Origin: Erysipelotrichaceae bacterium
Lineage (GTDB): Bacteria; Bacillota_I; Bacilli_A; Erysipelotrichales; Erysipelotrichaceae
DNA length: 64,000 nt
Reading direction: 5' to 3'
Assembly: GCA_963586925.1 (NCBI GenBank)
Contig: CAVAAT010000016.1
Span: 30,774-94,773, forward strand
Below are positions 1-15,593 of the stretch, piece by piece. Position 1 is the stretch's first letter, and each line of letters opens with the position of its first letter. The notes under the pieces are model-generated. The model made no database searches. It had not been told where the DNA came from and saw nothing but the letters and a program-made list of their open reading frames with translations. The position numbers were made by a program, and so were the translations under genes.

Positions 1-61
1 TTAGCTTTCTATCAAAATATTACTACTAAATACAAGTAAATGCTAGCACATAAACATATAC

Positions 62-89
62 AAAAAATGATAGAAATATCATCTATCAT
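62..89 (-). terminator. Rho-independent terminator downstream of the nifB-like gene (stem atgataga / tctatcat, then T-run on minus strand)
   Basis: 8-bp perfect inverted repeat at 67-74 / 82-89 followed by a T-tract read on the minus strand; lies directly after the stop of the 118..957 gene. Confidence 0.5.
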
Positions 90-117
90 AATTTTTGCAT
101 GCTTCCTTCATACACTT

Positions 118-957
118 TTACAAACAACCACAAGTCCTCGTAGTGCCATCACTTAATACTAAAACATCAGCACGACATCTACTACAAGTAGTCAACTCTT
201 CTAAATGTTTCGAACACAGATAACGCATTCTTTCTACTTCACCAATGTTAGGGATTTCTTCTTCTAAGATATTTTCATTAGGTATGACTGGTAAGATATT
301 ATGGATCAAGCAACCATACTCTTTAGCTTTGATAGCGATAGCTTCTATTTCAGAATCATTTCTCCCTTTGACATATACTGTATTGATCTTTACTTTTAAA
401 CCTGCTTCAATTGCCTTTTTAATACCGTTCCATTGTCCTTTTAAGAAAGCATCATATGCTTCATAAGTTTTTTTAGAAGCAATATGCTCATAGATCTTCA
501 TTGCTGTCTCTACCGTTAAAGCATTGACAGTAACAGTTAATGTATCAACTAATCCCTTTAGACTATCAACATTTTCCTCAAGTAATAAGCCATTAGTAGA
601 GACACAAAGTAATAACTTGGGATATTTTTCATGTATCACTTTAAAAGTCTCTATGGTTTTTTTAGACAATAAAGGTTCTCCAGGACCAGCAATACCTACT
701 ACTAAAAAATTTGGATCGATATTAACTGCCATATCTACTTTTTTTACTGCTTCTTCTACCGTCAATACATTAGAGGCGACTCCCGGCCTACAACCATGAT
801 AACAAGCATCAACAGTAGGTTTACAAAAACAACATTTGATATTACAAGGATAAGCCACTGGTAAATGCATTCTACCAGAAGCTTTAAAGCTATTATTAAA
901 ACAAGGATGCTTTCTAATAAGTTGTTCTCTTTCAAATAAATCATTACTAATATCCAT
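118..957 (-). CDS. NifB-family radical SAM protein (FeMo-cofactor-biosynthesis-like core, no NifX-like C-terminal domain)
   Basis: 279 aa; HPCFNN...RMHLPVAYPCNIKCCFC matches the NifB HPC...RMHLPVA..CNIQCNYC CxxxCxxC region; overlaps the upstream nifH-like gene by 11 nt. Confidence 0.85.
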   Translation of the reverse strand: MDISNDLFEREQLIRKHPCFNNSFKASGRMHLPVAYPCNIKCCFCKPTVDACYHGCRPGVASNVLTVEEAVKKVDMAVNIDPNFLVVGIAGPGEPLLSKKTIETFKVIHEKYPKLLLCVSTNGLLLEENVDSLKGLVDTLTVTVNALTVETAMKIYEHIASKKTYEAYDAFLKGQWNGIKKAIEAGLKVKINTVYVKGRNDSEIEAIAIKAKEYGCLIHNILPVIPNENILEEEIPNIGEVERMRYLCSKHLEELTTCSRCRADVLVLSDGTTRTCGCL

Positions 958-1753
958 ATAAGCTATTCATCTCTTCATAAAATTCTTTGCGATCCCAAGG
1001 AGTATTATTTATTACTTCATGTTGTTGTAAGATATATTCACTTGCTTGAAGATAAGCATCATAAGTTTCTTTGCTACAATTTTGATCAATAGCAGTCAAA
1101 CCTTTTAATTCATTTAAAGGGATCATTTCATCATGAGGAATGACACTGATAAGAGGCACATTAATTTTAGAAGCAAACTTCTCTACTATTACTTTTTCGT
1201 TATCAAATCCAGCACTATTTAGTATCAAACCTTTGACTACTTTCTTATTCTCATTCATACCTTTAGTGATATTATTTGCTGCATATAAAGAAGCTTGTTC
1301 ACCTGATGAAACAATATAGATCTCATTAGCGTAACCCTTAGATATCGGCGTAGCAAATCCTCCACAGACTACATCTCCTAAAACATCATATATGACTACA
1401 TCAAGATCATCTAATAACTTCTTTTGGGATAATAAACCTAATGCCATGATAAGACCTCTACCAGCGCATCCCACTCCTGGTTTTGGTCCTCCTACTTCCG
1501 CACATAAAATATCATATCTTCCTTTAATGACACATTCATTAATATCACATTCTTTTTCAATGATTTGTTCATACTTTTCTAAGATTGAGGAAATATAACC
1601 ACCAGTGATCAAACGCACAGTATCTTGTTTAGGATCACAACCAATTAGACCAACTTTATAGCCCTTTTGAGCTAAAAGAACCGCAAGATTAGCTGAAAAA
1701 GTTGATTTACCGATTCCACCTTTACCATAAATTGCTATCCTTTTTTTAATCAT
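947..1753 (-). CDS. NifH/BchL-family ATPase (nitrogenase iron protein-like)
   Basis: 268 aa; IAIYGKGGIGKST P-loop, CDPKQDT, GVGCAGRG and VVCGGFA (both 4Fe-4S Cys ligands) near-identical to NifH. Confidence 0.9.
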   Translation of the reverse strand: MIKKRIAIYGKGGIGKSTFSANLAVLLAQKGYKVGLIGCDPKQDTVRLITGGYISSILEKYEQIIEKECDINECVIKGRYDILCAEVGGPKPGVGCAGRGLIMALGLLSQKKLLDDLDVVIYDVLGDVVCGGFATPISKGYANEIYIVSSGEQASLYAANNITKGMNENKKVVKGLILNSAGFDNEKVIVEKFASKINVPLISVIPHDEMIPLNELKGLTAIDQNCSKETYDAYLQASEYILQQHEVINNTPWDRKEFYEEMNSLYGY

Positions 1754-2942
1754 GAAAATGCTCCTTTAACTTTCTAGTCAAATATTTCATTCCTGAAACA
1801 CCAAATAACGACTCATTATCTTCTACAGAATCCCAAACAGGAGCTGTAAAAGGTATATATAAACATTCTTCATTATGACCATAGACATTTGATGAACCAA
1901 AAGATATCGCACAATCTAATTCTTTTCTAAATTCATTTAATTCATAACCGCCAACATCAGCTTCTAACCAATCACATATACCTAATTCATCTAATTTTTC
2001 TACACCATAACTATCACTACTTACCGCAAGTTTACAATCAAATTCTTCCTTTAACATCTTAGCTAAGCTAACAGCATAATAACAATCAGCTTCGATCATA
2101 ACATATCTTTTAGAAAGATATGTTTTAAGATAATCGATATCGTCACTTAATTCTTCTCTTTCTTTATCTAACTTATCAAAGATATTTTGATCAATCTCTT
2201 TACCTGTGATCTCACTTATCTTTTTTATAAAATCTTTGATCGCAGAAAAACCGATCGGAGCATATGTATCACTACGCTCATTTAATAAACCAATGTAAAT
2301 CACTTTAGCTTTACTATATTCTTGTAGATCTTTATCTATATCAAACTCGACGGAAATGGAAGGTGCTAAAACTAAGCCACAATAATCTTCAACTATCTTT
2401 TTAAGTTCTAACATATTCTTTTTAGAATTATAAACCGAAGCTGCCATTCCATCTAACGCTATCCTTTTACCATCAAATTCATGCTCAATATTTAACCAAC
2501 TAATAAAATCATCATAACTCTTACGATAGCCATCATTATCCTCACCAAATAAACTACTACCATCTTCCAAAAATACCTTGATACCTGTATCCTTTTGATA
2601 TTGTTCAATGATATCTTGATAATCTTCGCCGATCATACTTGTTGCACAAGTCAATATCACAAATATGACTTTCGGACTATAAACTCTAGCTGCCTTATAT
2701 AAAGCTGCTTGTAATTTACTTGTAGTACCTAAAGCAAGTTCATATTGATAGATCGCAGTAGTAGGTAATATTGGACATTTATCAGCCAATAAGAATATCA
2801 TTCTATAACCACCAGCACAACCTGTAGGACCATGAACGATCGCTAAAGAGTTATTGATGCTACAAGAAAAAGAGATGATTCCACCCATTGCACAGCCATG
2901 ACTTGATTCAATCCTTGAACTTATTTGTGTAGTTGTATACAT
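1746..2942 (-). CDS. Nitrogenase component-1-type oxidoreductase, alpha-like subunit (NifD/NifE-like, short form)
   Basis: 398 aa; IVHGPTGCAGGY resembles NifD/NifE ISHGPVGCGQY; Cys-rich N-terminus; overlaps neighbours on both sides. Confidence 0.8.
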   Translation of the reverse strand: MYTTTQISSRIESSHGCAMGGIISFSCSINNSLAIVHGPTGCAGGYRMIFLLADKCPILPTTAIYQYELALGTTSKLQAALYKAARVYSPKVIFVILTCATSMIGEDYQDIIEQYQKDTGIKVFLEDGSSLFGEDNDGYRKSYDDFISWLNIEHEFDGKRIALDGMAASVYNSKKNMLELKKIVEDYCGLVLAPSISVEFDIDKDLQEYSKAKVIYIGLLNERSDTYAPIGFSAIKDFIKKISEITGKEIDQNIFDKLDKEREELSDDIDYLKTYLSKRYVMIEADCYYAVSLAKMLKEEFDCKLAVSSDSYGVEKLDELGICDWLEADVGGYELNEFRKELDCAISFGSSNVYGHNEECLYIPFTAPVWDSVEDNESLFGVSGMKYLTRKLKEHFHD

Positions 2943-4282
2943 TCTGGTAACTCCTTTGCGTTAAAGACGCTCTCTGTAAAATCAAAGCCTTGCATTGCCA
3001 TTCTTAGCTTATCGCCAAAATTAACTGCTCCTGCATAACCTTCATGAGGGACAGTATAAATAGTGATCGGAACAAAAGGAATATGATGTTTTTTACAAAC
3101 ATGTAATTCTTGATATCCACCAGCCCATACATCAAATTTGATCGTAGTAGCTAATTCCTCAAGTTCATATAAACTAGCAGAAACAATGAAATTTCTTACT
3201 TTCAAATGATGTGTTTCCAATAAATGTTTTAGATCTCTCTGAGAATTCTGATGAGGATAAAATAGGACAGCCGTATCGATATCCATTTCATAATCATTTA
3301 ATAAATGTAGTAAACCGATAAGTCTTCCTGGTCCTCCTGAGATAAATATCTTTTTACCCTTTAATTCAGCTTTATTTTCTTCAAACTTATAACGATATTC
3401 ATCTTCTAACTCTTTGATCTCTTTTGTTTTGTCTAAACCTAATTTAGTAGTGATCTCAGTTAACCATTCGGTAGTTCCAGAAAAGCCATAGGGCGAACGC
3501 CAACTTAACATTGGTACCCCATCTTTTTCCATATCATAAACATAATCACCACATACTGCAGGACAGACTACCGCATTACCTTTAGCAGTCATGGCTTTTT
3601 GTACATCTTCTAATTTACTTCCCCCAGATAAGACAGTCTTAACCTCTACACCAACTTTATCAAGCATCCTTAAACATTCACCGATCTCTCTTTCATTAGA
3701 GCGTGTAGGCCAATGCCAGCCTATTAAGTTAATGCCACTTCTTTCACCTTTATATTTTCCTAAAAAAGGTTTAATTAAAGCTGTCATTGCAGGATTATAT
3801 CCTGCTTGAGGACTTTGCCCCATGATATTAGATGCTTGGATTGATGTGGTAGTGATACCTGTATATTCTTCTATCTGTCTTTCTATATCATCTAGCTCAA
3901 TGCCAGAAACGATCAGCTCATCAGTAGGAACTAAAACAAATAACTTGGGATCCTTTTTACCAACTATCTTCATCAATCTATCGGTGAAAGATCTTCTCAC
4001 AATGAGATTTCCAGTGACAACCTGTGTAGGAGTAAATTCTAAAGTGATCGCTGGTATTTTACCTAAATCAAAATCAACTTCTCCCATAGCTACTACCGCA
4101 AAACGAACATGATAAGAGCAACCTTTAGCTCCTACCATGATAGGAAAAACATCATCCATAGTCGCTAATACTCGATAAGCAGACATTATTGGACCTAACA
4201 CTTGATAATCAGCCCATAACTCATTTTCCGATAATTTCCAATCGTTAGTTAATTTTTCTAAACTTCCGTTATACCATTTCAT
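2921..4282 (-). CDS. Nitrogenase component-1-type oxidoreductase, beta-like subunit (NifK/NifN-like, short form)
   Basis: 453 aa; MVGAKGCSYHVRF resembles NifK HGSQGCVAYFRS; family-typical alpha/beta domain layout; 1-nt gap to the upstream permease gene. Confidence 0.8.
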   Translation of the reverse strand: MKWYNGSLEKLTNDWKLSENELWADYQVLGPIMSAYRVLATMDDVFPIMVGAKGCSYHVRFAVVAMGEVDFDLGKIPAITLEFTPTQVVTGNLIVRRSFTDRLMKIVGKKDPKLFVLVPTDELIVSGIELDDIERQIEEYTGITTTSIQASNIMGQSPQAGYNPAMTALIKPFLGKYKGERSGINLIGWHWPTRSNEREIGECLRMLDKVGVEVKTVLSGGSKLEDVQKAMTAKGNAVVCPAVCGDYVYDMEKDGVPMLSWRSPYGFSGTTEWLTEITTKLGLDKTKEIKELEDEYRYKFEENKAELKGKKIFISGGPGRLIGLLHLLNDYEMDIDTAVLFYPHQNSQRDLKHLLETHHLKVRNFIVSASLYELEELATTIKFDVWAGGYQELHVCKKHHIPFVPITIYTVPHEGYAGAVNFGDKLRMAMQGFDFTESVFNAKELPECIQLHK

Positions 4283-4283
4283 A

Positions 4284-5249
4284 CTATTCTGATACTAATC
4301 CCTTTTGTAATTCTTCTTTAGTCTTTTTTCTTTCGATCGTATACTTGATATTTTTGATCGATGCACTTATGATCAAGATCAAAATTGTCGCAATATAAGG
4401 AATTGAAGAGATAAGATCAACGCTATAACCTGCAAGTTGTAATCTATTAGCTAAAGCTTGAGCTGCACCGAAGAAAACTGAAGCAAGTGCAGTATAGATT
4501 GGATCAGCACCTGTGATATTTGTAGCTGACATACCTATATAACCTCTTCCTGCTGTTATATCTCTTTGGAACCAACTAACATAACCCATCGACATAAAAC
4601 ATCCACCAAGTCCTGCCATGATACCAGCAATAGCGAATGATAAATAATAGATCTTAATAGGATCAATGCCAACAGAAGTTGCAGCAGCTGGATTTTCACC
4701 TACTGAACGGATCCTCAAACCTAAAACTGTCTTTTTTAAAACATAAGCCATTAACAAAGTGCAGATTATTGCTACATAAGTCAAGATATTATGCCCTGAT
4801 AATATTTCACCCAATACTGGTATATCTTTGATAAGAGGTATATCGATATTAGGTAATACTGGTGAATTCAAATGTCCAACAGTACTTGCTTTTTGACCAG
4901 TCAAGAGATACATGACAAATACAGTTGCTCCACTCATGCCGGTATTCATTGCGATCGAAGCTAAGTATAAGTCTACTTTCAAAGAGAATGTACAATAACT
5001 AAGTATTAAAGTGATGATGACTGAAGCAAGTACACCTGCTAATAAACCTAACCAAACATTTTGACTGTAACCTCCTACTAAGACACCAGTCAAAGAGGAA
5101 GCAAGCATCATACTTTCGATAGCCATATTTAATACACCAGACTTTTGAGTTATAACGGCCGATAATGCACCAAAAACCAAAGGTGTAGAGATACGGATGA
5201 TGTTATTGATAAATGAAGGCATGCTAGCCCACGTAAATAAAGATTCCAT
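4284..5249 (-). CDS. ABC transporter permease (BMP/nucleoside-type system, NupC/YufQ-like)
   Basis: 321 aa polytopic membrane protein; start overlaps the stop of the upstream permease. Confidence 0.8.
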   Translation of the reverse strand: MESLFTWASMPSFINNIIRISTPLVFGALSAVITQKSGVLNMAIESMMLASSLTGVLVGGYSQNVWLGLLAGVLASVIITLILSYCTFSLKVDLYLASIAMNTGMSGATVFVMYLLTGQKASTVGHLNSPVLPNIDIPLIKDIPVLGEILSGHNILTYVAIICTLLMAYVLKKTVLGLRIRSVGENPAAATSVGIDPIKIYYLSFAIAGIMAGLGGCFMSMGYVSWFQRDITAGRGYIGMSATNITGADPIYTALASVFFGAAQALANRLQLAGYSVDLISSIPYIATILILIISASIKNIKYTIERKKTKEELQKGLVSE

Positions 5250-6334
5250 TACTTACTTTCCTCCTTTATTGCTTCTTTTTGAGCTGATCTTATGATCGCT
5301 CTATTTTTAAGTCCACTCATAAAACTCTTAGCAGCGATAAGCAAGATGATCACTGATTGAGCTATATAAACAAATTCAATAGGTATATCTGTATTGACAT
5401 TTAAGATATTAGCTCCTGCTTTAATGTAAGCTAATAAGAATGCACCAAGAGGTACCATAAATGGATTCTTTCTAGCAAGTACTGCGACTAATAAGCCATC
5501 AGCAGCAAGTCCAGGTAAAGCAGTCCAGATATAACGGTCATAAACCCCCATTATATCTATTGCTCCTCCAATCGCACATAAGCTGATACCAATAGCTTCA
5601 GCTATCAAAACATTCTTATTGACATTTAATCCCGCATATCTAGCAAAATCAGGATTTTCACCACATATTCTCATCGAGAATCCACCTTTACTATAGTAGA
5701 ATAAGATACCTACAACTATTACTACGATAAGTCCTAATATCAAACCTGTATTGATATTAGAATTCTTGATAAATTCAAATAAAGAGATCTTACCATCAAA
5801 TTTCATTGAAGCAAGATAAGTGATATCCGGATCTCTAAGTACTGTCTTTAATAAATAGATACAAACATAAGTGATGATATAATTCATCATGATCGAGACA
5901 ACCACTTCATTTGCGCCAAACTTTTGATCCATTACTGTTGGTATGCTACCAACAACTGCTCCCATAATGGCACAAGCTATCAAAATCACAATGATAAGTA
6001 AGATGTGAGGCAAGTTGGCTCCAAATCCAGTTGTGATCATTGCGGTAAGACAGCCAGCTAACATATAAACGCCATCACCGATCATATTAAAACGATTGAC
6101 AGCGTAAATAAAACACATTCCTACACCTGTAAACAAATAAGGAATAAATCTACTCATGATCATACCAAAACGCCTAGCCGAGGTAAATGGACCAATACTG
6201 AACAAATAAACAGCTTCTGTTGGATCATCAGTTACTACTAACATCACAATGATACACAACAAATAAGCAATGACCATGCTTAAGACCGTCCTAAATATTT
6301 CAAAAGCAAACTCGATCTTTCTTGTCTTTTTCAT
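5249..6334 (-). CDS. ABC transporter permease (BMP/nucleoside-type system, NupB/YufP-like)
   Basis: 361 aa polytopic membrane protein; translationally coupled on both sides. Confidence 0.8.
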   Translation of the reverse strand: MKKTRKIEFAFEIFRTVLSMVIAYLLCIIVMLVVTDDPTEAVYLFSIGPFTSARRFGMIMSRFIPYLFTGVGMCFIYAVNRFNMIGDGVYMLAGCLTAMITTGFGANLPHILLIIVILIACAIMGAVVGSIPTVMDQKFGANEVVVSIMMNYIITYVCIYLLKTVLRDPDITYLASMKFDGKISLFEFIKNSNINTGLILGLIVVIVVGILFYYSKGGFSMRICGENPDFARYAGLNVNKNVLIAEAIGISLCAIGGAIDIMGVYDRYIWTALPGLAADGLLVAVLARKNPFMVPLGAFLLAYIKAGANILNVNTDIPIEFVYIAQSVIILLIAAKSFMSGLKNRAIIRSAQKEAIKEESK

Positions 6335-7884
6335 TAGTCATCACCTTCCATTTCTTCTTGACTCATCGTTTTTAAGCCTAACATATATTCACCTAAAGTA
6401 TCTTCATTCACATCACTCATCTTCTTGAAGTGAGCAACAAACTTTCCTTTATACATAACTAGCAAGCGATCAGAAACTTCTAATACTTCATTTAGATCAG
6501 AAGATATCAATAAGGCTCCAACTTTACCTGTTCTTGTCTTTTCAATCAACTTCTTATGGATGATCTCAGTAGTACCAACATCGATCCCTCTTGTTGGCTG
6601 ATTAGCTACGATGAAGTTCGCTCCACTATTGAACTCTCTAGCCACGATAACTTTTTGAATATTACCACCTGATAATAAACGAACTGGCTCAGTACGATCA
6701 TCACAGGCAATCTCATATTCGGCGATACAATCATCAATAAACTTATTCATTTTCTTCATGTCTAATAATAAGCCTTTATTAAACTCTTTATTAGACAAAT
6801 ATATAGAGGCGATATTCTCTCTTATCGATAAAGATTGAGCACAACCATATTTCATCCTATCTTCCGATATTGAACAAACGCCTAATTTTCTTATATTATC
6901 AATACTTAAATTATGGATACTCTTACCATTGATCAAGATTTTACCAAAATCAAAACTACGCATTCCCGTTAATATCTCAGATAATTGATTCTGTCCATTA
7001 CCTTCAACTCCTGCAATACCAACGATCTCACCAGCATGGATCTTCAAAGAAATGTTATCAATGATCTTTTTATTATTTTCATCAAAATAAGTTAGATCAT
7101 CGATCTCTGCGATCGTCTCCTTAACTTCGGCTTTAGCTTTTTCAATGGAATTAACCGCATCTCTTCCTACCATTAGTTGCGATATTTTCGCAGGGCTAAG
7201 ATTACAGATGTCATCATTAGCAACTAGCTTTCCCTTACGTAATACAGTGATCCTATCACATAACTCCATGATCTCTTCTAATTTATGAGAGATAAAGACG
7301 ATCGATAAACCTTGCTTAGCCATACTTTTTAATTGCACGAACAATTCTTTAGTTTCTTGAGGTGTCAATACAGCAGTTGGTTCATCTAGAATGAGTACTT
7401 TACAATTTCTGACTAAGGCTTTTAAGATCTCTACTTTTTGTTTAGTACCTACCCCAAGATCATTAACGATATCAGTAGCATTGATCTTTAAGTTATATTT
7501 ATCAGCAACTTCTTGGGTCTTTTTTATAGCCTCTTGATAATTAAAGTTAATGCCTTTATGTGGTTCAATACCTAACATAACATTTTCTGCTACACTTAAT
7601 GATGGTACTTGCATGAAATGTTGATGGACCATACCAATACCATAAGAGATAGCTTCTATAGGTGAAGTGATATTCACTTTCTCACCATTTATATAGACAT
7701 CTCCTTCTTGATGATCTTCTAATCCAAAAAGTATCTTCATTAATGTTGTTTTACCTGCTCCATTTTCACCAACAAGAGCATGTATCTCCCCTTCATTTAC
7801 CGATAGATCAATATGATCATTAGCTTTAAAGCCATTACTATAGATCTTGGTTATATTTTTCATTAGTAGGATTTCCTTAGCCAT
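6334..7884 (-). CDS. ABC transporter ATP-binding protein with duplicated ATPase domains (sugar/nucleoside-type, NupA/RbsA-like)
   Basis: Two Walker A/ABC-signature modules (GENGAGKTT, LSGG); start chosen at MAKEILLMKN (7884), preceded by GGAGGT RBS, not the upstream in-frame Met at 7932. Confidence 0.85.
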   Translation of the reverse strand: MAKEILLMKNITKIYSNGFKANDHIDLSVNEGEIHALVGENGAGKTTLMKILFGLEDHQEGDVYINGEKVNITSPIEAISYGIGMVHQHFMQVPSLSVAENVMLGIEPHKGINFNYQEAIKKTQEVADKYNLKINATDIVNDLGVGTKQKVEILKALVRNCKVLILDEPTAVLTPQETKELFVQLKSMAKQGLSIVFISHKLEEIMELCDRITVLRKGKLVANDDICNLSPAKISQLMVGRDAVNSIEKAKAEVKETIAEIDDLTYFDENNKKIIDNISLKIHAGEIVGIAGVEGNGQNQLSEILTGMRSFDFGKILINGKSIHNLSIDNIRKLGVCSISEDRMKYGCAQSLSIRENIASIYLSNKEFNKGLLLDMKKMNKFIDDCIAEYEIACDDRTEPVRLLSGGNIQKVIVAREFNSGANFIVANQPTRGIDVGTTEIIHKKLIEKTRTGKVGALLISSDLNEVLEVSDRLLVMYKGKFVAHFKKMSDVNEDTLGEYMLGLKTMSQEEMEGDD

Positions 7885-7947
7885 ATTTACCTCCATATAA
7901 AATAAATGGGGATGAAAAATTTCAATCCCCAATTTATATATTTTTAA

Positions 7948-9045
7948 CTATTGTTGAGCGCTTCTCCAAGCATCAAATTCTTCGAAATTTGCGAAAGAGA
8001 AATAATAAGATTTTGGTTCAACTTTGCCATTGATGATGTCATCCTTCAAAGCAGTAACAGCATCTTGAACTTCTTGAGAAACGATCTCTTTGTAATGATC
8101 ATTATAAGCAAGATCCATTGCTCCAGTATCTACACCTTGAACATCTACTTGTCCCCAAACAGAATCATCACCGTTCATGAACTTATCAAATACAGCAACG
8201 ATAGAAACATCGATCTTCTTAACAACAGAAGTAACGATTGAATCAACTAATTTAGCATCATCACTATCTTGATATGCTAACCATTGGTCATCATCAACAC
8301 CGATCAAATAGAAGCCATTATCACGACCACCCATGTCATAAGCAGCTTGCCAACATCCTTGATAACCTAATGCGAATACTACATCATAACCATTCTGCAT
8401 CAATTCTTTAGTTACATCACTGAATAAAGCAGCATCCCACTTGCCTGTGTGAGCATTGTAACAAGAGATTGAAGAATCATAGTACTTAGCACCATCAAAG
8501 AATCCAGCAACGAAATCATTGATCAATGGGCTATCGTTATCAGTAACAACAGCAACTTTCTTATTTGCTGATAGACTAGCAGCTACATAACCACCTAAGA
8601 AGCTTGCACTATTAGCACCATAAGCAATAGCAGTAACATTAGAATGTTCACCGATCTCAGCAGTTGGAGCTACATCAAAGATAACAAACTTGATATCAGG
8701 ATATTCATCTGCATGTTCTAAGATAATGTCAGATAATGTGTTACCGGCTTGTGAAACAACATATGAATACTTACCACTATCACATACATCCAAAACAGAT
8801 GATTCATAAGTAGCACCGTTATTGTTTCCCAATTCAATAGCAGTAGGGTCAAAGCCATACTTCTCAGAAACTTCTTGACATGCTTTCCAACCATTGTCGT
8901 TGTAAGATAAGTCACCAAGTTGCATACAGAAATATGCTAAACCAGGATTTTGATCGCTAGTACCGTTGTCATCCCCATTATTTGAACAGCCTACTAGAGA
9001 AAGTGTCATTAATAAAGCTAATAACACGATTGAAATTTTTTTCAT
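7948..9045 (-). CDS. BMP-family ABC transporter substrate-binding lipoprotein (PnrA/Med-like)
   Basis: 365 aa; signal peptide with lipobox LVGCS; BMP-family fold motifs; GAGGAGG RBS. Confidence 0.85.
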   Translation of the reverse strand: MKKISIVLLALLMTLSLVGCSNNGDDNGTSDQNPGLAYFCMQLGDLSYNDNGWKACQEVSEKYGFDPTAIELGNNNGATYESSVLDVCDSGKYSYVVSQAGNTLSDIILEHADEYPDIKFVIFDVAPTAEIGEHSNVTAIAYGANSASFLGGYVAASLSANKKVAVVTDNDSPLINDFVAGFFDGAKYYDSSISCYNAHTGKWDAALFSDVTKELMQNGYDVVFALGYQGCWQAAYDMGGRDNGFYLIGVDDDQWLAYQDSDDAKLVDSIVTSVVKKIDVSIVAVFDKFMNGDDSVWGQVDVQGVDTGAMDLAYNDHYKEIVSQEVQDAVTALKDDIINGKVEPKSYYFSFANFEEFDAWRSAQQ

Positions 9046-9068
9046 TTCATTTTCCTCCTCGGTTGACT

Positions 9069-9077
9069 ATTATAGCA
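9069..9077 (-). promoter_or_regulatory. Extended -10 promoter element (TGcTATAAT) for the ABC-importer / nitrogenase-like operon
   Basis: Perfect TATAAT with upstream TG, 22 nt upstream of GAGGAGG RBS; no convincing -35. Confidence 0.35.
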
Positions 9078-9123
9078 CGAGACTAGTGACGAATAATAGT
9101 GGCAACTTAACGATTTTACAAAC

Positions 9124-9156
9124 AAAATTAAAAAAGATGGTATATTTCAACCATCT
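9124..9156 (-). terminator. Rho-independent terminator of rpoD (agatggt / accatct stem, T-run)
   Basis: 7-bp inverted repeat overlapping the rpoD stop followed by tttttaatttt on the minus strand. Confidence 0.55.
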
Positions 9157-10369
9157 ATAGCTTATCAACAAAATCTTTTAAACGTTTGCTCTTTGTTGGA
9201 TGTTTTAACTTTCTTAAAGCTTTAGCTTCGATCTGTCTGATCCTTTCACGAGTAACATTGAATTCCTTACCAACTTCTTCTAGAGTTCTCTGTCTTCCAT
9301 CAATTAGACCAAATCTTAATTGAAGTACTTTTCTTTCTCTTTCTGTTAAAGTTGAAAGTACATTATCAATCTCATCCTTCAGTAATTCCTTACTAGCATA
9401 TTCATCAGGTGAGATAGCATGCTTATCCTCAATGAAGTCTCCTAAATGAGAATCATCTTCTTCACCAATTGGTGTTTCTAGCGAAACTGGATCTAAAGCG
9501 ATTTTTTGGATCTCTCTTACCTTTTCTGGAGTGATATTGCCCAATTTCTCAGCAATCTCTTCAGCTGAAGGTTCTCTACCCAATTCTTGTACTAACTGTC
9601 TTTGAACTCTTGTTAATTTATTTATTGTTTCCACCATGTGGACAGGAATTCTGATTGTTCTTGCCTGATCGGCAATAGCTCTGGTGATTGCTTGTCTGAT
9701 CCACCAAGTAGCGTAAGTTGAGAACTTAAATCCCTTTGTATAATCAAATTTCTCGACTGCTTTAACTAAGCCTAAGTTTCCTTCTTGGATAAGATCTAAG
9801 AATAATAAGCCTCTACCAACATATTTCTTAGCGATAGCAACTACAAGTCTTAAGTTAGCTACGATCAATTCTTCCTTAGCACCTTCATCGCCTTCTTGAA
9901 TCCTTCTAGCAATCTCTTTTTCTTCTTCAGATTTCAACAAAGGAACTTTACCAATGCTCTTAAGGTAGATCTTAACATTGTCGTAATTCTTGCTTAAGGA
10001 AGTATCAGCATATTCTTTATATTTCTCTTCTTCTTGTTCATCGACGTTGGAATAATCAAGATTACCGATTTCTTCATCAACATCTTCATCAGAATCAGAT
10101 TCTTCACCAACAAGATCTTCATCAGCATCGACTAACTCATCTCCAAGTTCGTCTTCCATGATGATACCATTATCTCGCGTCCATTCAATGAAAGCTTCCT
10201 GTTCATCATCAGTCAGTTTAAGTTCATCAACTGCCTTCATGACCTCATCTTGGGTAATGATTTCATCATTTTGAGTTTTTTCTAATAGACTTTGCTTAAC
10301 TTCATCTAGACTCTTGAATTTTGTTTCACGCATTATCTCTTCCTCCCGTCTTTTTCGATAGTTGTTCAT
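9155..10369 (-). CDS. rpoD: RNA polymerase sigma factor RpoD (sigma-A)
   Basis: Regions 2-4 fully conserved ([47 protein letters not shown]); acidic N-terminal region. Confidence 0.95.
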
Positions 10370-12116
10370 TTAATTTTTTGATCTCTTTTTGCACATTGAT
10401 ATAATTAACTGATAGCTTAGCTTTTAAATGTCCATCATTCAATTTTTCAATTTGAGAAGAGATCTCCTTCTTTTCTTTTGTCAGTTTGTCGATCTTTAAT
10501 TTGATGCAACAATCCTTCAATAAATCTTCACTTGCCATCTCACTTAATGTCTTATCAGCTAATATCCCTAATAATAGTGAATATTGTTCATCATCTAATT
10601 GTTCTGATAAAGATGCGATCTTAAACTTAGGTTCTTGTTGGTAAGAATCTGTGATAAGTGAAACATAATGTTGATACTTCTCATCAGGAAGATCAACTAA
10701 TTGATCTTGAAAGATACTGACATTAGTAGCTGATAACATAAGTTGCTTAATGATCGTTCTTTGGGCGATCTCAAGACCAGTAATAGATGCTTTTTTAACT
10801 CTTTTTGGCATTTGCACTGGTATAATATCAGTAGCATTGACCTTTTCTTTTCTTAATACTTCATAAGAGAAACCACTGATCTCAGATAATTTTCTTAAAT
10901 AAGTATCCTTATCTAATTCATCACTATTAGCATTGATCTCGTTAGCAACCTTATTAACAAATTCTTTTTTAGCCGAATAATTGTTTAGATCATATTGTCC
11001 TTGATAATAAACAAATATGAAATCTAACCAAGTCATCGATTTATTGATCATCGCTTTAAGCTCACCAGCACCGTATTTATTGACAATCTCATCTGGATCA
11101 AGATCAGTCTTGTTATTTATTACCTTAATTTCGAATCCAGCATTTATAGCCATTTTTCCTGCTCTTAGGATTGCTGATTGACCAGCTTTATCGCCATCAT
11201 AAGCTAATATCAGTTTGCTTGCCTGACGTTTTAATAACTTTAATTGGTTATCTGTCAAATTAGTACCTAATGAGCACACAGCATTAGATATACCTGCTCG
11301 ATCAAAAGCAATGACATCCATCGGTCCTTCAGCTAATATCGCAGTCTTATTCTCCCTAATAGTAGCTCTCGCATTATTTAGATTGAACAAAACATCACTC
11401 TTATGAAATATCGGAGTATCAGTACTATTTATATATTTACTTGGATTACTCTTATCGATACTTCTTGCTGTAAAGCCAATAGGATGATTGTATTCATCAA
11501 AGATTGGTATCATGATACGATCATAAAATACATCTCTAATGCCATTTTCTGTTAAACGACAGACATTAGCCTCAATGATATCATTATCCCTATAACCTTT
11601 TTGATGTAAGAAGTTATAAAGACGATCATGAGTTGGGTTATATCCTATCTGATATTTACGCAATATATCTTTATCTAAATGACGATCGATAAGATAATCC
11701 TTATAAAGTTTACCTTTCGAAGAATTAAGCTCATTTTGGCAAAAACTCACAGTATCTGCGATGATCTTATGAAATACAGTTTCCTCAAAGACATTAGTCC
11801 TATTGTTAGAAAATTCATACTTGTAACCAATCTTATCAGCTACTTCCTTTATTGCTTCGGGATATGATATCTTCTTATATTGCATAACAAAGCCAAAGAC
11901 ATCACCAGAAGTATGATTTTCACTTGGGCAAGAGAAACATTTATATATCTGCTTAGAAGTATTGATATGCAAAGAAGGATCATGGTCATCATGAAAAGGA
12001 CAATAAGCTTTATAGTTTACACCCGCTTTGATAACAGGGATATATGAGCCTATCACATCTTCAATCCTTGCTTTTTGCTTAATATCATTAATAACTTCTT
12101 GAGGAATACTTGCCAT
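10326..12116 (-). CDS. dnaG: DNA primase DnaG
   Basis: CHC2 zinc finger ([13 protein letters not shown]...YKCFSC), TOPRIM region, position upstream of rpoD. Confidence 0.9.
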
Positions 12117-12124
12117 TTAACACC

Positions 12125-13513
12125 TTAAAATTTAATCAGTTTATTTAAATAATCTTCAATCTCATCAATCTTGATAGTCTCTTGTTTCATGCTATCACGA
12201 TCACGGACTGTAACTGTTTGATTAGTCTCACTATCGAAATCAACAGTGATACAAACAGGAGTACCAATAGAATCTTGTCTTCTGTAACGTTTACCAATAG
12301 AACCATTCTCATCAAATTGAACATCAAATGATTTAGCTAGCTTAGTATAGATTTCCATAGCTAATGGTGATAGTTTCTTACTCAAAGGTAATACTGCAGC
12401 TTTAATAGGAGCTAATGCTGGATGTAAATGCATAACAGTTCTCTGATCTTCTTTTCCATTAGCATCTACTAAGTTTTCAATATCAAAACTATCACAAACA
12501 AAAGCTAAGAATAATCTTTCAACACCAACAGCTGGTTCAACACAATAAGGAACATATTTTTCATTTGTATATGGATCAAGATAAGAAAGATCTTCACCTG
12601 AATGTTCCATATGACGTTTTAAATCATAATCAGTCCTATCAGCGATGCCCCATACTTCACCCCAACCAAATGGGAATAAATATTCAACATCACAAGTACC
12701 TTTAGAATAGAAAGCTAATTCTTCTTTTGTATGATCACGCATACGCATATTTTCACTCTTTAAGCCAAGATTAGTCAACCAATCATAGCAGAATTGTTTC
12801 CAATAAGGATACCACTTATCATCTTCTCCTGGTGTACAGAAGAATTCCATTTCCATCTGTTCAAACTCTCTTGTACGGAAGATGAAGTTACCTGGAGTGA
12901 TCTCATTACGGAAACTCTTACCTACTTGACCAATACCAAAAGGTAATTTTTTTCTCATTGTTCTTTGAACATTCTTAAAGTTAACAAACATACCTTGAGC
13001 TGTCTCAGGACGTAAATAGATCGTACTCTTACTATCCTCAATGACTCCCTGGAATGTCTTAAACATTAAGTTAAACTGTCTGATATCTGTAAAATCAGTA
13101 GCTCCACAATTAGGACAAGCAATGTGTTTATCCTTGATATATTGAACCATATCCTCGCTCTTCATAGCTTCAACATTAACTGGTTCTGTTGCACATTGTT
13201 CGATCAATTGATCAGCACGATATCTACTCTTACATTTTTTACAATCGATCAATGGATCACTAAAGTTCTTAACATGTCCTGTAGCTACCCAAACCTCTGG
13301 ATTCATAAGGATCGCACTTTGAATACCAACATTATTAGGATCTTCTTGAATGAACTTCTTCCACCAAGCAGATTTGATATTTTTCTTTAAATTTGCACCT
13401 AACGGACCATAATCCCAAGTATTAGACAATCCACCATAAATTTCAGAACCCTGGAATACATAACCAGAAGTTCTTAAATGGTTTACGATCTGTTCAAAAG
13501 TATATTTTCCCAT
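12125..13513 (-). CDS. glyQS: Glycine--tRNA ligase (dimeric class II, GlyQS)
   Basis: 462 aa; [13 protein letters not shown]...[18 protein letters not shown]-terminus typical of glyQS. Confidence 0.9.
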
Positions 13514-13574
13514 AAAACTTTTACCTCTCTTATCTTTCTACATATAAATACGCTATTTTTACCCAAAAGTAAAC

Positions 13575-14297
13575 CTAACTATTTAAATTTGTTAAACTTT
13601 TATAACTATTTACTCTTATACCCGAATAAATGACTAAGATATTCATCATGATATCAACTAACTCAAATTCATTCAAATTTAAATTGACTAATTTATCAAT
13701 AATATTCATGTTAGCTTTATTTATATATCTAAACTTCATAAGTAAAGAAGGACTCATTGCTTTATTTTCTCCTTGATTACATTTACGACACAAAAAACCA
13801 CCATCCTCTAATGAGATGGTCTCAATATCATCACTTCTACCACATAAAACACAACCATCTACATATGGTGAAATCCCAAGTCTATTCAATATCTCTGATA
13901 AAAAGATATTTAATATCAAATAGGGTTGATCATTCTTATCAAGATTTTCTAAGCTTTTTAATAACAAGTCATAGATATCTTCTGTAGCACACTTATCTGT
14001 TATCTCACATATTAAAGAAGCAATGGTTATCTTTTCATAATCATTTCTAATGCCACTAAATGTGTCAATAAGAGTTGCACTTTTAAGATGTTGCATATTC
14101 CTATCAGGGTAATAATCAAATATAAATGAAGAACGATTTAAAAGTTGAGTTGCATAGATATTTTTACCACTAACTTTCTTTTGTCCTCTAACATAAAGAG
14201 CCAATTTGCCATGCTCTTTCGTTAAGATATTGATGATCGCATCATTGTCTTTATAGTCATTAACTGAAATGACTATCCCTTCAATCACATCATTCAT
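13575..14297 (-). CDS. recO: DNA repair protein RecO
   Basis: 240 aa; C-terminal CxxC...CxxC zinc motif (CVLCGRS...CRKC); conserved position between era and glyQS. Confidence 0.8.
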   Translation of the reverse strand: MNDVIEGIVISVNDYKDNDAIINILTKEHGKLALYVRGQKKVSGKNIYATQLLNRSSFIFDYYPDRNMQHLKSATLIDTFSGIRNDYEKITIASLICEITDKCATEDIYDLLLKSLENLDKNDQPYLILNIFLSEILNRLGISPYVDGCVLCGRSDDIETISLEDGGFLCRKCNQGENKAMSPSLLMKFRYINKANMNIIDKLVNLNLNEFELVDIMMNILVIYSGIRVNSYKSLTNLNS

Positions 14298-15189: not shown

Positions 15190-15593
15190 TAAGCTAAATC
15201 CTCTTCATTAAATTGCATTGGTAGTAATTCAGCAATATTTGTAACTTTCGTCTCAGTACCATTACTTAAGATGATAGGCGTATCCTGATTTAATAATTCA
15301 CACAATACTTGGCGACAAATACCACATGGAGCAGCTAATTTCTTACCATAACTAACGATGCACAATGCTTGAATATCATCTTTACGATAACCGTAAGAAT
15401 AAGCAGCAAAAGTCGCACTCCTTTCAGCGCAATTAGTAGCACCAAAAGAAGCATTTTCAATATTGGCACCTAAAAAATGATTACCATCTTTACATAAAAT
15501 ACAAGCTCCTACCTTATAATTTGAATAAGGTGCATAAGCATTTTCGGCAGCAGTAAATGCTAAATTAATCAATTCCTGTTGATTCATATTCAT
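15189..15593 (-). CDS. cdd: Cytidine deaminase
   Basis: 134 aa; CAERSA and PCGICRQ zinc-binding motifs. Confidence 0.85.
   Translation of the reverse strand: MNMNQQELINLAFTAAENAYAPYSNYKVGACILCKDGNHFLGANIENASFGATNCAERSATFAAYSYGYRKDDIQALCIVSYGKKLAAPCGICRQVLCELLNQDTPIILSNGTETKVTNIAELLPMQFNEEDLA

What the first reader, a model, noticed from the sequence alone, without database searches (positions are those of the whole stretch)
118..957. Stand-alone NifB-core radical SAM protein (no NifX/NafY-like domain) as terminal gene of the cluster
Seen in sequence: HPCFNN...RMHLPVAYPCNIKCCFC reproduces the NifB HPC...RMHLPVA..CNIQCNYC region. That is the SAM-cluster CxxxCxxC plus the upstream HPC motif. 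The protein is only 279 aa, so it is the radical-SAM core without the C-terminal NifX-like carrier domain.

Established knowledge: NifB makes the Fe8S9C NifB-co precursor. Its presence implies the partner D/K-like proteins carry a carbide-containing or otherwise complex cluster, rather than the simple 4Fe-4S of BchNB/CfbD.
Basis: partly seen in the sequence, partly recalled or inferred. Interest (0 to 1): 0.6.

Follow-up and report, generated by a model that had tools for sequence, protein, structure and literature searches.

The report
NifB-type cofactor maker in nitrogenase-like operon
The gene really encodes a single-domain NifB-type enzyme (the protein that builds the iron-sulfur-carbon core of nitrogenase cofactors), but it serves a rare, uncharacterised nitrogenase-like reductase in a non-nitrogen-fixing gut Erysipelotrichia bacterium, possibly acting on an imported nucleoside-derived compound.

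Summary
Confirmed. ORF 118..957 (-) encodes a 279-aa radical-SAM protein. Its best family hit is NifB (TIGR01290, 1e-57; next is MoaA, 6e-20). Its best solved relatives are the three single-domain archaeal NifB structures (E 3e-56; model TM 0.81-0.86). All residues that hold the SAM, K1 and K2 clusters in those NifBs are present and invariant among its relatives. There is no NifX domain.

It deviates from canonical NifB in two of six fingerprint motifs (ExRP, DAxG) and scores below the TIGR01290 cut-off.

[quoted passage not shown] The host is an uncultured Erysipelotrichia.

The D/K pair belongs to a very small, well separated nitrogenase-like clade. Only four full-length 50%-identity clusters exist among 1.84 billion representatives. 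Every sufficiently long locus of this clade carries a NifB homologue.

D keeps the cofactor cysteine (C240 = MarD C270 = NifD C275). Only four of the six P-cluster cysteines remain, with an invariant Asp at the NifD-C154 position. No characterised system has this hybrid ligand set.

Neighbouring genes repeatedly concern nucleosides or nucleotides. The substrate is unknown.

The NifB itself is ordinary; the system it serves is a new variant.

The parts
118..957 (-). NifB-like single-domain radical SAM protein (279 aa), last gene of the operon
   Evidence: ORF. TIGR01290 at 1e-57. Solved NifB structures at 3e-56. Fold TM 0.81-0.86 to NifB structures.
901..909 (-). HPC motif (H17-P18-C19). C19 is the K1-cluster Cys, equivalent to MthNifB C18 and MaNifB C30.
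   Evidence: Sequence. Alignment. Invariant. Ligand role from PMC8179604 and PMC7145814.
823..846 (-). Radical-SAM cluster motif C38-x3-C42-x2-C45
   Evidence: invariant.
787..810 (-). Flexible loop D50-A-C52-Y-H-G-C56-R57. C52 corresponds to MthNifB C52. The canonical ExRP motif reads GCRP here.
   Evidence: alignment. The model is low-confidence at residues 49-58. Motif definition from PMC5715403.
166..186 (-). C258-x2-C261-R-A-D264: the K2-cluster CxxC, equivalent to MthNifB C260/C263 and MaNifB C274/C277
   Evidence: invariant.
947..1753 (-). NifH/CfbC-like ATPase reductase (268 aa). It has the P-loop GKGGIGKS and the [4Fe-4S] cysteines C96 and C130.
   Evidence: PF00142 at 1.8e-75. CfbC model 283.5 bits and nifH model 265.8 bits, both below their cut-offs. 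Cys conservation.
1746..2942 (-). NifK-like subunit (398 aa). C17, C42 and C99 correspond to NifK C70, C95 and C153.
   Evidence: PF00148. Alignment to NifK. Invariant in 21 sequences.
2921..4282 (-). NifD-like subunit (453 aa). C55 = NifD C88. D121 sits at the NifD C154 position. There is no Cys at the NifD C62 position. C240 = MarD C270 = NifD C275. C203 and H394 are invariant within this family.
   Evidence: Model pLDDT 89.5, TM 0.72-0.77 to nitrogenase/Mar component 1.
4284..5249 (-). ABC permease (BPD_transp_2)
5249..6334 (-). ABC permease (BPD_transp_2)
6334..7932 (-). Tandem ABC ATPase (532 aa)
7948..9045 (-). Bmp/PnrA-family substrate-binding lipoprotein (365 aa)
   Evidence: PF02608 at 8e-36. 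Nearest solved relatives are BmpD, BmpA and TmpC/PnrA.
9069..9121 (-). Promoter-like region of the operon: TTGTAA-17-TATTAT at 9121..9093 and an extended -10 TGcTATAAT at 9077..9069
   Evidence: Consensus scan. Sequence read. These are consensus matches only.
9135..9156 (-). Terminator-like hairpin plus T-run after rpoD, separating the operon from the upstream housekeeping genes

Best explanation
**What it is.** The gene encodes a dedicated single-domain NifB-family maturase (an 'NflB'). It belongs to a four-protein nitrogenase-like reductase (D, K, H, B) that is co-transcribed with a Bmp-type ABC importer. The host is an uncultured Erysipelotrichia bacterium.

**Shown.**
- The protein has the NifB fold.
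- It has the SAM-cluster cysteines, the K1 ligands (C19, H31, C52, C118) and the K2 CxxC (C258, C261).
- It is translationally coupled to H, K and D.
- A NifB homologue accompanies this D/K clade in every locus long enough to show it.
- D keeps the cysteine that anchors the [Fe8S9C] cluster in MarD and FeMo-co in NifD.

**Inferred mechanism.**
1. B fuses two [4Fe-4S] units and inserts a SAM-derived carbide, giving an L-cluster (NifB-co).
2. B passes the cluster to D without NifEN or a NifX carrier. It binds at C240, with a second ligand from the invariant Y390/H394/C396 loop.
3. The H dimer hydrolyses ATP and sends electrons through a reduced interface cluster to the L-cluster. The interface ligands are D-C55 (possibly also D-D121) plus K-C17/C42/C99, so the cluster is probably [4Fe-4S].
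4. The L-cluster reduces an imported small molecule.

**More weakly inferred.** The substrate is nucleoside- or nucleotide-derived. It could be a base or a thio/deoxy-sugar moiety, scavenged as a nutrient in the way Mar and Isr scavenge sulfur.
For: **NifB identity.**
- TIGR01290 at 1e-57 versus MoaA at 6e-20.
- Solved NifB structures at 3e-56.
- Model TM 0.81-0.86 to NifB, with a 17-log gap to other radical-SAM enzymes.
- H17, C19, H31, C38, C42, C45, C118, C258 and C261 are invariant in 18, 11 and 40-sequence alignments. Ligand roles come from PMC7145814 and PMC8179604.
- 42-46% identity to archaeal NifBs.

**Coupling to D/K/H.**
- Gene overlaps of 22, 8 and 11 nt.
- 17 of 22 genome loci with this D clade carry a NifB homologue. 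The other five contigs end too early.
- One member (L025) uses a full-length 487-aa NifB scoring 569 bits. This shows the clade needs generic NifB chemistry.
- The B proteins of the Firmicutes members form one subclade in a rough NJ tree.

**Cofactor site in D.**
- C240 aligns exactly with MarD C270 (counted on 9FMG numbering).
- C240 is invariant.
- Precedent: Mar carries [Fe8S9C] made by MarB/NifB (PMC12552129, PMC13474568).

**Nucleoside link.**
- The window's binding protein is Bmp/PnrA family.
- L029-31 carry the same Bmp transporter plus five IU-nucleoside hydrolases directly upstream of D.
- Eight type-B loci (Halanaerobiales and other Bacillota MAGs) carry an NT5C nucleotidase directly upstream of D.
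- Clostridia loci carry a PF01663 nucleotide pyrophosphatase, a HAD phosphatase and a PNP_UDP_1 phosphorylase.
Against: **Against a canonical NifB.**
- Two of the six NifB fingerprints deviate. ExRP reads GCRP, and CxxCRxDAxG reads CSRCRADVLV (PMC5715403).
- The TIGR01290 score of 195.8 is below the 343.65 cut-off. It is also below the roughly 280 bits scored by two single-domain proteins that their sources label NifB.

**Against a nitrogenase-like cluster set in D/K.**
- No His aligns with NifD H442 (T407 instead) or with MarD H429 (Y390 instead).
- Only four of the six P-cluster cysteines remain. The electron path therefore differs from Mar and nitrogenase.

**Against a nucleoside substrate.**
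- Most family members carry Opp/Dpp-type (peptide/nickel) transporters, not nucleoside transporters.
- The link rests on gene neighbourhood only.

**Other.**
- No biochemical data exist for any member.
- A close relative (L001) has lost D, K and the transporter yet keeps an intact B. The dN/dS values suggest the deletion is recent.
Confidence: 0.6

Rival explanations
1. B is a NifB-derived enzyme that no longer makes a carbide-containing L-cluster. It either builds a different Fe-S cluster (for example a carbide-free 8Fe double cubane) or acts on the substrate itself, as has been suggested for the radical-SAM partner IsrB of isethionate reductase.
For: The ExRP loop is replaced by C-Y-H-G-C-R-P, and the AxG after CxxCRxD is lost. 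The NifB HMM score is the lowest tier among the members tested. D/K shares the 1+3 cysteine pattern of IsrDK, which is predicted to hold only a [4Fe-4S] cluster (PMC11423573).
Against: All K1, K2 and SAM-cluster ligands are invariant. IsrB is BciD-like and shares only the CX3CX2C motif with NifB (PMC11423573), whereas this protein is 41-44% identical to proteins that their sources label as archaeal NifB or radical SAM. D keeps the cofactor Cys that IsrD lacks. One clade member pairs D/K/H with a canonical full-length NifB.
Confidence: 0.2
2. The operon is a cofactor-biosynthesis system of the CfbCD/Group VI type. The ABC transporter imports a metal or a tetrapyrrole precursor, and D/K/H reduces a macrocycle.
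For: The H protein's best NCBIfam model is CfbC (283.5 bits). Most relatives sit next to peptide/nickel-type (Opp/Nik family) transporters. One relative lies near cobalamin genes (L032). Metal transport coupled to cofactor assembly was proposed for transporter-linked nitrogenase-like genes in PMC3464626.
Against: The CfbC score is below its cut-off of 402. CfbD is a single homomeric subunit with no NifB partner (PMC13474568). Here D and K are distinct, and NifB is always present. The window's transporter is Bmp/CUT2 type, not a metal importer. No tetrapyrrole genes lie in the operon.
Confidence: 0.1
3. The cluster is a minimal alternative nitrogenase (Nfa-like) that fixes N2.
For: A B-H-D-K gene set without NifEN is what the N2-fixing Group IV-A Nfa systems have (PMC13474568). 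D keeps the Cys275 equivalent.
Against: Two P-cluster cysteines are missing and there is no His442 equivalent. The operon is fused to a solute importer and, in relatives, to nucleoside hydrolases. No nifV/E/N/X or other nif-like paralogue exists in the window. The D clade is well separated from every other component-1 protein in the 1.84-billion library (479 to 168 bits). By profile it matches a true nitrogenase (M. infernus NifD, 110 bits) and MarD (99 bits) equally weakly.
Confidence: 0.03
4. The ORF is a generic radical-SAM enzyme (MoaA/PqqE-like) that only resembles NifB around the CX3CX2C motif.
For: Pfam reports only the generic PF04055 domain. The TIGR01290 score is below its cut-off.
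Against: There is a 38-order E-value gap between NifB and MoaA. The alignment to solved NifBs runs full length. The fold gap is TM 0.85 versus 0.61. The NifB-specific HPC, H31, C118 and C-terminal CxxC residues are all conserved.
Confidence: 0.01

Closest known systems
Single-domain (SAM-radical only) NifB of archaea and Firmicutes, e.g. Methanothermobacter thermautotrophicus (7BI7/7JMA/7JMB), Methanotrix thermoacetophila (6Y1X) and M. infernus NifB
   Same: Same one-domain architecture and fold (TM 0.81-0.86). It is 35-44% identical to these and other single-domain NifBs (35-40% to the solved structures; 42-44% to named archaeal sequences). All SAM, K1 and K2 ligands sit at almost the same residue numbers. 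The HPC, AGPG and TxTxN motifs are present.
   Different: It is not next to nifHDK(EN). The ExRP motif is replaced by GCRP inside a Cys/His-rich loop. The AxG after CxxCRxD is lost. The TIGR01290 score is 196 bits versus about 280 bits for single-domain NifBs that their sources label NifB. It forms its own subclade with the NifB-like genes of the same nitrogenase-like family.
MarB of methylthio-alkane reductase MarBHDK (Group IV-C; Rhodospirillum rubrum, PDB 9FMG)
   Same: It is a NifB homologue encoded with a nitrogenase-like H/D/K set and no NifEN. In Mar the D subunit binds an [Fe8S9C] cluster through a Cys that aligns with C240 here (PMC12552129).
   Different: MarD/K have all six P-cluster cysteines and the R428-H429 loop ligand. 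Here only four cysteines remain, with an Asp added, and G389-Y390 occupy those positions. Gene order is D-K-H-B, not B-H-D-K. The context is a Bmp importer rather than methionine/sulfur genes. The D profile matches MarD only at 99 bits. The MarB sequence itself could not be compared.
Isethionate reductase IsrBHDK (Group IV-F; Rhodobacter capsulatus)
   Same: A four-gene B/H/D/K system linked to an ABC importer. It has the same reduced pattern of one Cys in D (NifD C88 position) plus three in K (PMC11423573).
   Different: IsrB is BciD-like and shares only the CX3CX2C motif with NifB. IsrD lacks the Cys275 equivalent and has Pro/Ser, not Asp, at the C154 position. Sequences whose key residues match the published IsrD description score only about 84-95 bits against this D profile.
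DPOR (BchLNB/ChlLNB) NB-cluster
   Same: An interface [4Fe-4S] cluster held by an asymmetric 3 Cys + 1 Asp ligand set from two subunits (PMC13474568). Here three Cys come from K, and one Cys plus an invariant Asp come from D.
   Different: DPOR has no NifB partner and no Cys275-type cofactor ligand. The Asp lies in the other subunit and at another position. The D profile matches BchB/BchN far more weakly.

Membership tests
NifB (radical-SAM L-cluster/NifB-co synthase) | Radical-SAM Cx3Cx2C motif | tested here: met
   C38, C42 and C45 are invariant.
NifB (radical-SAM L-cluster/NifB-co synthase) | HPC motif and K1-cluster ligands (MaNifB C30, H43, C63, C129; MthNifB C18, H31, C52, C115) | tested here: met
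   H17-P18-C19, H31 and C118 are invariant. C52 is present here and in at least 90% of 40 homologues. Ligand roles are from PMC7145814 and PMC8179604.
NifB (radical-SAM L-cluster/NifB-co synthase) | K2-cluster C-terminal CxxC (MaNifB C274/C277; MthNifB C260/C263) | tested here: met
   C258 and C261 are invariant. C248 lies 10 residues upstream, the same spacing as MaNifB C264, but is Cys in only 10 of 18 family members.
NifB (radical-SAM L-cluster/NifB-co synthase) | AGPG and TxTxN fingerprint motifs (PMC5715403) | tested here: met
   A90-G-P-G93 and T141-V-T-V-N145.
NifB (radical-SAM L-cluster/NifB-co synthase) | ExRP fingerprint motif (PMC5715403) | tested here: not met
   The sequence reads H54-G-C56-R-P58, with no Glu. 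The same change occurs across the Firmicutes members of this subclade. The Chloroflexi and Rhodospirillaceae members keep NExRP.
NifB (radical-SAM L-cluster/NifB-co synthase) | Full Cx2CRxDAxG fingerprint (PMC5715403) | tested here: not met
   The sequence is C258-S-R-C-R-A-D-V-L-V. The Cx2CRxD core is present, but A is replaced by V and G by V.
NifB (radical-SAM L-cluster/NifB-co synthase) | Score above the curated TIGR01290 cut-off (343.65 bits) | tested here: not met
   The score is 195.8 bits. The model is 441 positions long and includes the NifX domain. Two single-domain proteins that their sources label NifB also fail, at about 280 bits.
NifB (radical-SAM L-cluster/NifB-co synthase) | NifB fold, distinct from other radical-SAM enzymes | tested here: met
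   TM 0.81-0.86 and rmsd 2.3-2.9 A to 7BI7, 7JMB and 6Y1X. The next hit is PFL-AE at TM 0.61.
NifB (radical-SAM L-cluster/NifB-co synthase) | Converts two [4Fe-4S] units plus SAM into an [Fe8S9C] cluster | not testable with these tools
   This needs biochemistry: EPR and 14C-SAM labelling.
Bona fide nitrogenase (Nif/Vnf/Anf) | Six P-cluster Cys, Cys275 plus His442 in D, and NifEN (or at least NifE) | tested here: not met
   Four of six Cys are present. C240 is present, but T407 sits at the H442 position. No nifE/N paralogue is in the window.
[quoted passage not shown] | MarD Cys270 cofactor ligand | tested here: met
   C240 aligns to C270 of 9FMG_A.
[quoted passage not shown] | Arg428-His429 Loop I hallmark and a full P-cluster ligand set | tested here: not met
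   G389-Y390 align to R428-H429. The NifD C62 equivalent is missing and the C154 equivalent is Asp.
Isethionate reductase (Isr, Group IV-F) | One Cys in D (C88 position) plus three Cys in K | tested here: met
   D C55; K C17, C42 and C99. The pattern is described in PMC11423573.
Isethionate reductase (Isr, Group IV-F) | No Cys275 equivalent in D; a BciD-like (non-NifB) radical-SAM partner | tested here: not met
   C240 is invariant, and B is NifB-like.
CfbCD (Group IV-B) | A single homomeric catalytic subunit with no NifB partner | tested here: not met
   Separate D (453 aa) and K (398 aa) genes plus B. H scores 283.5 bits against the CfbC model, below its cut-off of 402.
Named Group IV sub-clade (IV-D or IV-E of North et al. 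2020) | Phylogenetic placement with the reference sequences of those clades | not testable with these tools
   The reference sequences were not retrievable. The 2026 review gives no members or features for IV-D/E.

The most novel reading that the evidence does not exclude
The D-K-H-B module is a previously unrecognised catalytic class of nitrogenase-like enzyme. It would be an ATP-driven reductase that combines a DPOR/Isr-like 4-Cys(+Asp) electron-transfer cluster with a NifB-made carbide cluster. Gut and halophilic anaerobes would use it to reduce or cleave an imported nucleoside- or nucleotide-derived compound. Candidate reactions are C-S cleavage of a thionucleobase or of 5'-methylthio-ribose/adenosine, or dearomatising reduction of a nucleobase ahead of amidohydrolase ring opening. 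That would extend the biology of the L-cluster to nucleoside catabolism or salvage in non-diazotrophic gut Firmicutes.
Probability: 0.2. Interest if true: 0.85.

Novelty: new variant of a known kind. Interest (0 to 1): 0.55.

Why it matters
Until 2025 the carbide-containing [Fe8S9C] cluster made by NifB was known only in nitrogenase assembly. Methylthio-alkane reductase, and probably the MCR activation complex, now show it is used more widely. Reviews state that the NifB homologues next to other nitrogenase-like clusters have unknown function.

This locus offers a compact, tractable example:
- four genes, with no NifEN and no NifX;
- a host lineage that does not fix nitrogen;
- a D subunit whose ligand set mixes the features that separate the 'simple 4Fe-4S' enzymes (DPOR, Isr) from the 'complex cluster' enzymes (Mar, nitrogenase).

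It could therefore show which parts of the nitrogenase metallocluster system are really needed to use an L-cluster. It could also reveal a new substrate class. The linked transporter and hydrolase genes give concrete candidates to test.

As a stand-alone observation (a NifB without NifX), it is ordinary.

Tried and rejected
1. **Exact-sequence look-ups found nothing.** Neither the window's B nor cluster member P0180 is on record. Context therefore came from homologues.
2. **My first mapping of the P-cluster ligands was wrong and was corrected.**
   - I had equated the HGPxGC cysteine with NifD C62 and treated the Cys in the M. infernus 'YCFSTDMQE' stretch as the C88 equivalent.
   - Counting along the NifK alignment fixed this, together with the VnfD/AnfD offsets and the statements in PMC11423573 and PMC3464626.
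   - HGPxGC is alpha-C88 / beta-C95. The upstream Cys is alpha-C62 / beta-C70.
   - Residual weakness: the alpha-subunit side still leans partly on Av NifD and VnfD ligand numbers recalled from memory. The assignment is consistent with the three sources above.
3. **No RNA regulator.** I looked for a riboswitch or leader upstream of the operon, which could have named the ligand. Rfam found nothing at gathering threshold over the window, and nothing at E<=1 over 8900..9400. There are no tRNAs.
4. **The clade could not be given a published sub-group letter (IV-D/IV-E).** The review, the Mar paper, the Heliophilum paper and Dos Santos 2012 give no usable membership lists. A search for 'Anaerotruncus' plus 'nitrogenase-like' found no paper.
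5. **The Cys-rich C-terminal tail (TRTCGCL) is not a family feature.** I considered it as a substitute for NifX, but it is not conserved across the family.
6. **The intact B in relative L001 does not show an independent role.** L001 has lost D/K. The leftover H fragment has the same dN/dS (0.14) as B (0.11), so the deletion is simply recent.
7. **Fold search with the D model does not discriminate.** NifD, NifK, VnfD/K, AnfK and MarD all give TM 0.72-0.77.
8. **The Opp-type binding protein of relatives gives no ligand clue.** It matches generic peptide-binding proteins only.
Full report
**1. The observation**

It is the last of eight tightly packed co-directional genes. Only 117 nt of window remain downstream.

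**2. Is it NifB?**

- *Family models.* Among NCBIfam models the best hit is TIGR01290 nifB (E=1e-57, 195.8 bits, residues 12-268 on model positions 7-275 of 441). The next family, MoaA, is at 5.8e-20. Pfam sees only the generic Radical_SAM domain.
- *Solved structures.* The only four distinct sequences matched at E<=0.01 are NifB entries. They are Methanotrix thermoacetophila 6Y1X (3.1e-56) and Methanothermobacter thermautotrophicus 7JMB/7BI7/7JMA (about 7e-53), aligned over essentially the whole protein.
- *Fold.* An AlphaFold model built on 40 homologues (pLDDT 88.2) superposes on those structures at TM 0.81-0.86 and rmsd 2.3-2.9 Å. The next radical-SAM enzymes (PFL-AE, viperin, MoaA) come at TM about 0.6, with E-values 17 orders weaker.

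The generic radical-SAM reading is therefore excluded.

**3. Cluster ligands and fingerprints**

I combined the HMMER alignment to MthNifB with the ligand assignments in PMC8179604 and PMC7145814.

| Cluster | This protein | MthNifB | MaNifB |
|---|---|---|---|
| SAM | C38, C42, C45 | not given | C50, C54, C57 |
| K1 | C19, H31, C52, C118 | C18, H31, C52, C115 | C30, H43, C63, C129 |
| K2 | C258, C261 | C260, C263 | C274, C277 |

- C248 lies ten residues upstream of C258, the same spacing as MaNifB C264.
- H17, C19, H31, C38, C42, C45, C118, C258 and C261 are invariant in three alignments (18 locus-derived, 11 mixed, 40 database homologues).
- C52 is at least 90% conserved. C248 is Cys in only 10 of 18.

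Of the six strict fingerprints of Arragain et al. (PMC5715403):
- Four are intact: HPC, Cx3Cx2C, AGPG and TxTxN.
- ExRP reads G-C-R-P, inside a Cys/His-rich loop D-A-C52-Y-H-G-C56-R-P. This is also the only low-confidence stretch of the model (residues 49-58).
- Cx2CRxDAxG reads CSRCRADVLV.

The TIGR01290 score is below the curated cut-off of 343.65. So are two single-domain proteins that their sources label NifB, from Butyrivibrio and ANME-2 (about 280 bits). This protein is in the lower tier, alongside members at 178-183 and 242 bits.

There is no NifX/NafY-like domain in the protein. A single-sequence search found none anywhere in the 64-kb window. Single-domain NifB is itself common: 104 of 289 curated NifBs (PMC5715403).

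**4. The operon**

After the rpoD stop comes a terminator-like hairpin (9156..9135) and promoter-like elements (9121..9069). The genes follow in this order:

| Gene | Coordinates |
|---|---|
| Bmp/PnrA-family binding lipoprotein | 7948..9045 |
| Tandem ABC ATPase | 6334..7932 |
| Permease | 5249..6334 |
| Permease | 4284..5249 |
| D-like | 2921..4282 |
| K-like | 1746..2942 |
| NifH-like | 947..1753 |
| B | 118..957 |

- D/K, K/H and H/B overlap by 22, 8 and 11 nt.
- No other nif-like paralogue exists in the window.
- No riboswitch or tRNA was found.
- The host is an uncultured Erysipelotrichia. Its GlyRS is 90% identical to a MAG so labelled and 71% to Holdemania. GC content is about 33%.

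**5. The partners**

*H.* It has the P-loop and the two [4Fe-4S] cysteines (C96, C130). It scores best against CfbC (283.5 bits) and NifH (265.8 bits), below both cut-offs.

*K.* It keeps all three P-cluster cysteines. C17, C42 and C99 correspond to NifK C70, C95 and C153. This was counted on the NifK alignment, and the residues are invariant in 21 sequences.

*D.*
- It keeps only the NifD-C88 equivalent (C55).
- The C62 position is an invariant Q-V-L-G.
- The C154 position is an invariant Asp (D121).
- C240 aligns exactly with MarD C270, which equals NifD C275 (counted on 9FMG numbering; PMC12552129).
- T407 sits at the H442 position.
- G389-Y390 align to the MarD hallmark R428-H429.
- H394 is invariant and C396 is present in 17 of 22, a few residues downstream in that loop.
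- C203 is a further family-specific invariant.

*Comparison across the library.* Only this family combines Asp at position 121, no C62-type Cys, and C240. This holds among 91 representative component-1 proteins from a 1.84-billion-protein library. Its nearest neighbours have the full C/C/C + C set. Sequences whose pattern matches the published IsrD description (C, P, N) are more distant.

*Fold.* The D model (pLDDT 89.5) has the component-1 fold, at TM 0.72-0.77 to NifD/K, VnfD/K and MarD.

**6. Distribution and context**

The D family is tiny.
- 59 database clusters reach E<=1e-10.
- Four full-length 50%-identity representatives exist, followed by a drop from 479 to 168 bits.
- Members occur in gut Clostridia (including cultivable Anaerotruncus colihominis), Halanaerobiales, Anaerolineales and a Rhodospirillaceae MAG.

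A NifB homologue is present in 17 of 22 genome loci. The other five contigs end before its expected position. One member uses a canonical full-length NifB (487 aa, 569 bits).

In a rough NJ tree the B proteins fall into three places:
- those of the Firmicutes members form one subclade;
- those of the type-B loci (Halanaerobiales and UBA5493) form a long branch;
- those of Chloroflexi and Rhodospirillaceae sit among ordinary NifBs.

Gene neighbours differ between lineages but recur in theme.

| Locus type | Neighbours |
|---|---|
| Window and L028 | Bmp ABC importer |
| L029-31 | Same importer plus five diverged IU-nucleoside hydrolases directly upstream of D |
| Eight type-B loci (Halanaerobiales and other Bacillota MAGs) | GntR regulator, Opp binding protein and permeases, xylose-isomerase-like TIM barrel, NT5C nucleotidase, then D |
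| Clostridia loci | PF01663 nucleotide pyrophosphatase/phosphodiesterase, YhfZ-type regulator, Opp importer, HAD phosphatase; PNP_UDP_1 phosphorylase in two |
| One Anaerolineales locus | Carbamoyltransferase-like (STRTR carbamoyl-phosphate motif read by eye, not profile-checked) and hydantoinase-like amidohydrolase genes upstream |

The window's binding protein is nearest to the solved Bmp-family lipoproteins BmpD, BmpA and TmpC (2FQW). From my own knowledge these bind purine nucleosides and TmpC is also called PnrA. The match is only E about 1e-15 to 5e-10.

**7. Mechanism**

*Shown.* The protein is a NifB-family enzyme with a complete ligand set. It is genetically locked to a D/K/H reductase whose D subunit keeps the cofactor cysteine.

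*Inferred.* The inference rests on the Mar precedent, where MarB or NifB supplies an [Fe8S9C] cluster bound by Cys270 and a loop His (PMC12552129, PMC13474568).
- B makes an L-cluster that is inserted directly into D at C240.
- The second ligand would come from the Y390/H394/C396 loop.
- H delivers electrons in an ATP-dependent way. They pass through an interface cluster that, with four Cys and an Asp, is more likely [4Fe-4S] than a P-cluster.
- The L-cluster reduces an imported compound.

*Substrate.* The nucleoside-derived assignment rests on neighbourhood alone and conflicts with the Opp-type transporters of most members. I put it at about 0.3.

**8. Comparison and verdict**

The gene works like, and by most tests is, a single-domain NifB. 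Two fingerprint motifs and the curated score threshold are not met. It is best called a divergent NifB-family member dedicated to a nitrogenase-like enzyme, comparable to MarB and NfaB.

The system is not any of the following:
- Mar: no R-H loop, incomplete P-site.
- Isr: it has the Cys275 equivalent, and its B is not BciD-like (PMC11423573).
- Cfb: it is heteromeric and has NifB.
- Nitrogenase.

NifB-like genes and ABC transporters next to nitrogenase-like genes have been noted since 2012 (PMC3464626). They are explicitly listed as being of unknown function in the 2026 review (PMC13474568).

Overall:
- The stand-alone NifB is unremarkable.
- The hybrid ligand set, the small sharply separated clade and the nucleoside-linked context make the operon a new variant worth experimental follow-up.

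**9. Limits**

- Only 64 kb of the genome was visible.
- The published sub-group letter could not be assigned.
- The tree is a rough neighbour-joining tree.
- Residue roles in D/K are by alignment, not structure.
- No member has been studied biochemically.

Noticed in passing
L001:8374-10011 (ENA contig k141_40872) versus window 947..9141: A close relative of the window genome (GlyRS 99%, NifB-like 92%) has deleted the transporter, D, most of K and the 5' half of H. What remains is a 110-nt K fragment, the last 103 codons of H and an intact B. dN/dS is 0.11 for B and 0.14 for the H remnant, so the deletion looks recent. The operon is evidently dispensable and being lost in some lineages.
   Followed up: yes
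L029:4902-9944 (also L030, L031): Five tandem, diverged paralogues of inosine-uridine nucleoside hydrolase (41-61% identical to each other, all with an N-terminal D-x-D-T-G-x-D-D motif). They sit between the Bmp ABC importer and the D-K-H-B genes in a relative whose D is 72% identical.
   Followed up: partly
L024:13399-15228 (Anaerolineales MAG JANQED010000168.1): A 609-aa ORF consists of two NifH-like domains fused in tandem. It has two P-loops and two CAGRG/CAGQG cluster motifs, making a covalently linked Fe-protein 'dimer'. It lies in a D-K-B-HH arrangement of the same family.
   Followed up: no
window 787..810 and 118..141 (B residues 50-57 and 273-279): B proteins of the Firmicutes members replace the canonical NifB loop D-C-x-N-E-x-R-P with D-A-C-Y-H-G-C-R-P, which adds an extra His and Cys. 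The window protein also ends in a Cys-rich tail, TRTCGCL. The tail is not conserved across the family.
   Followed up: partly
L025:8518-9981 (Rhodospirillaceae MAG PBQI01000173.1): In this member a canonical two-domain NifB with a NifX-like domain (487 aa, TIGR01290 569 bits) sits directly upstream of D-K-H of the same nitrogenase-like clade (D 39% identical).
   Followed up: partly
L032:7464-9802 (also L033): In a relative whose D is 59% identical, a Crp-family regulator and a YjjI-like glycyl-radical enzyme with its activating radical-SAM enzyme lie immediately upstream of D. Cobalamin-biosynthesis genes lie further upstream on the opposite strand.
   Followed up: no
window 1..64000: Nearly all genes lie on the minus strand, and GC skew is uniformly negative (-0.05 to -0.29) across the whole window. 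This fits a single replichore of a low-GC Bacillota genome. The operon is inserted directly downstream of the conserved era-recO-glyS-dnaG-rpoD block.
   Followed up: no
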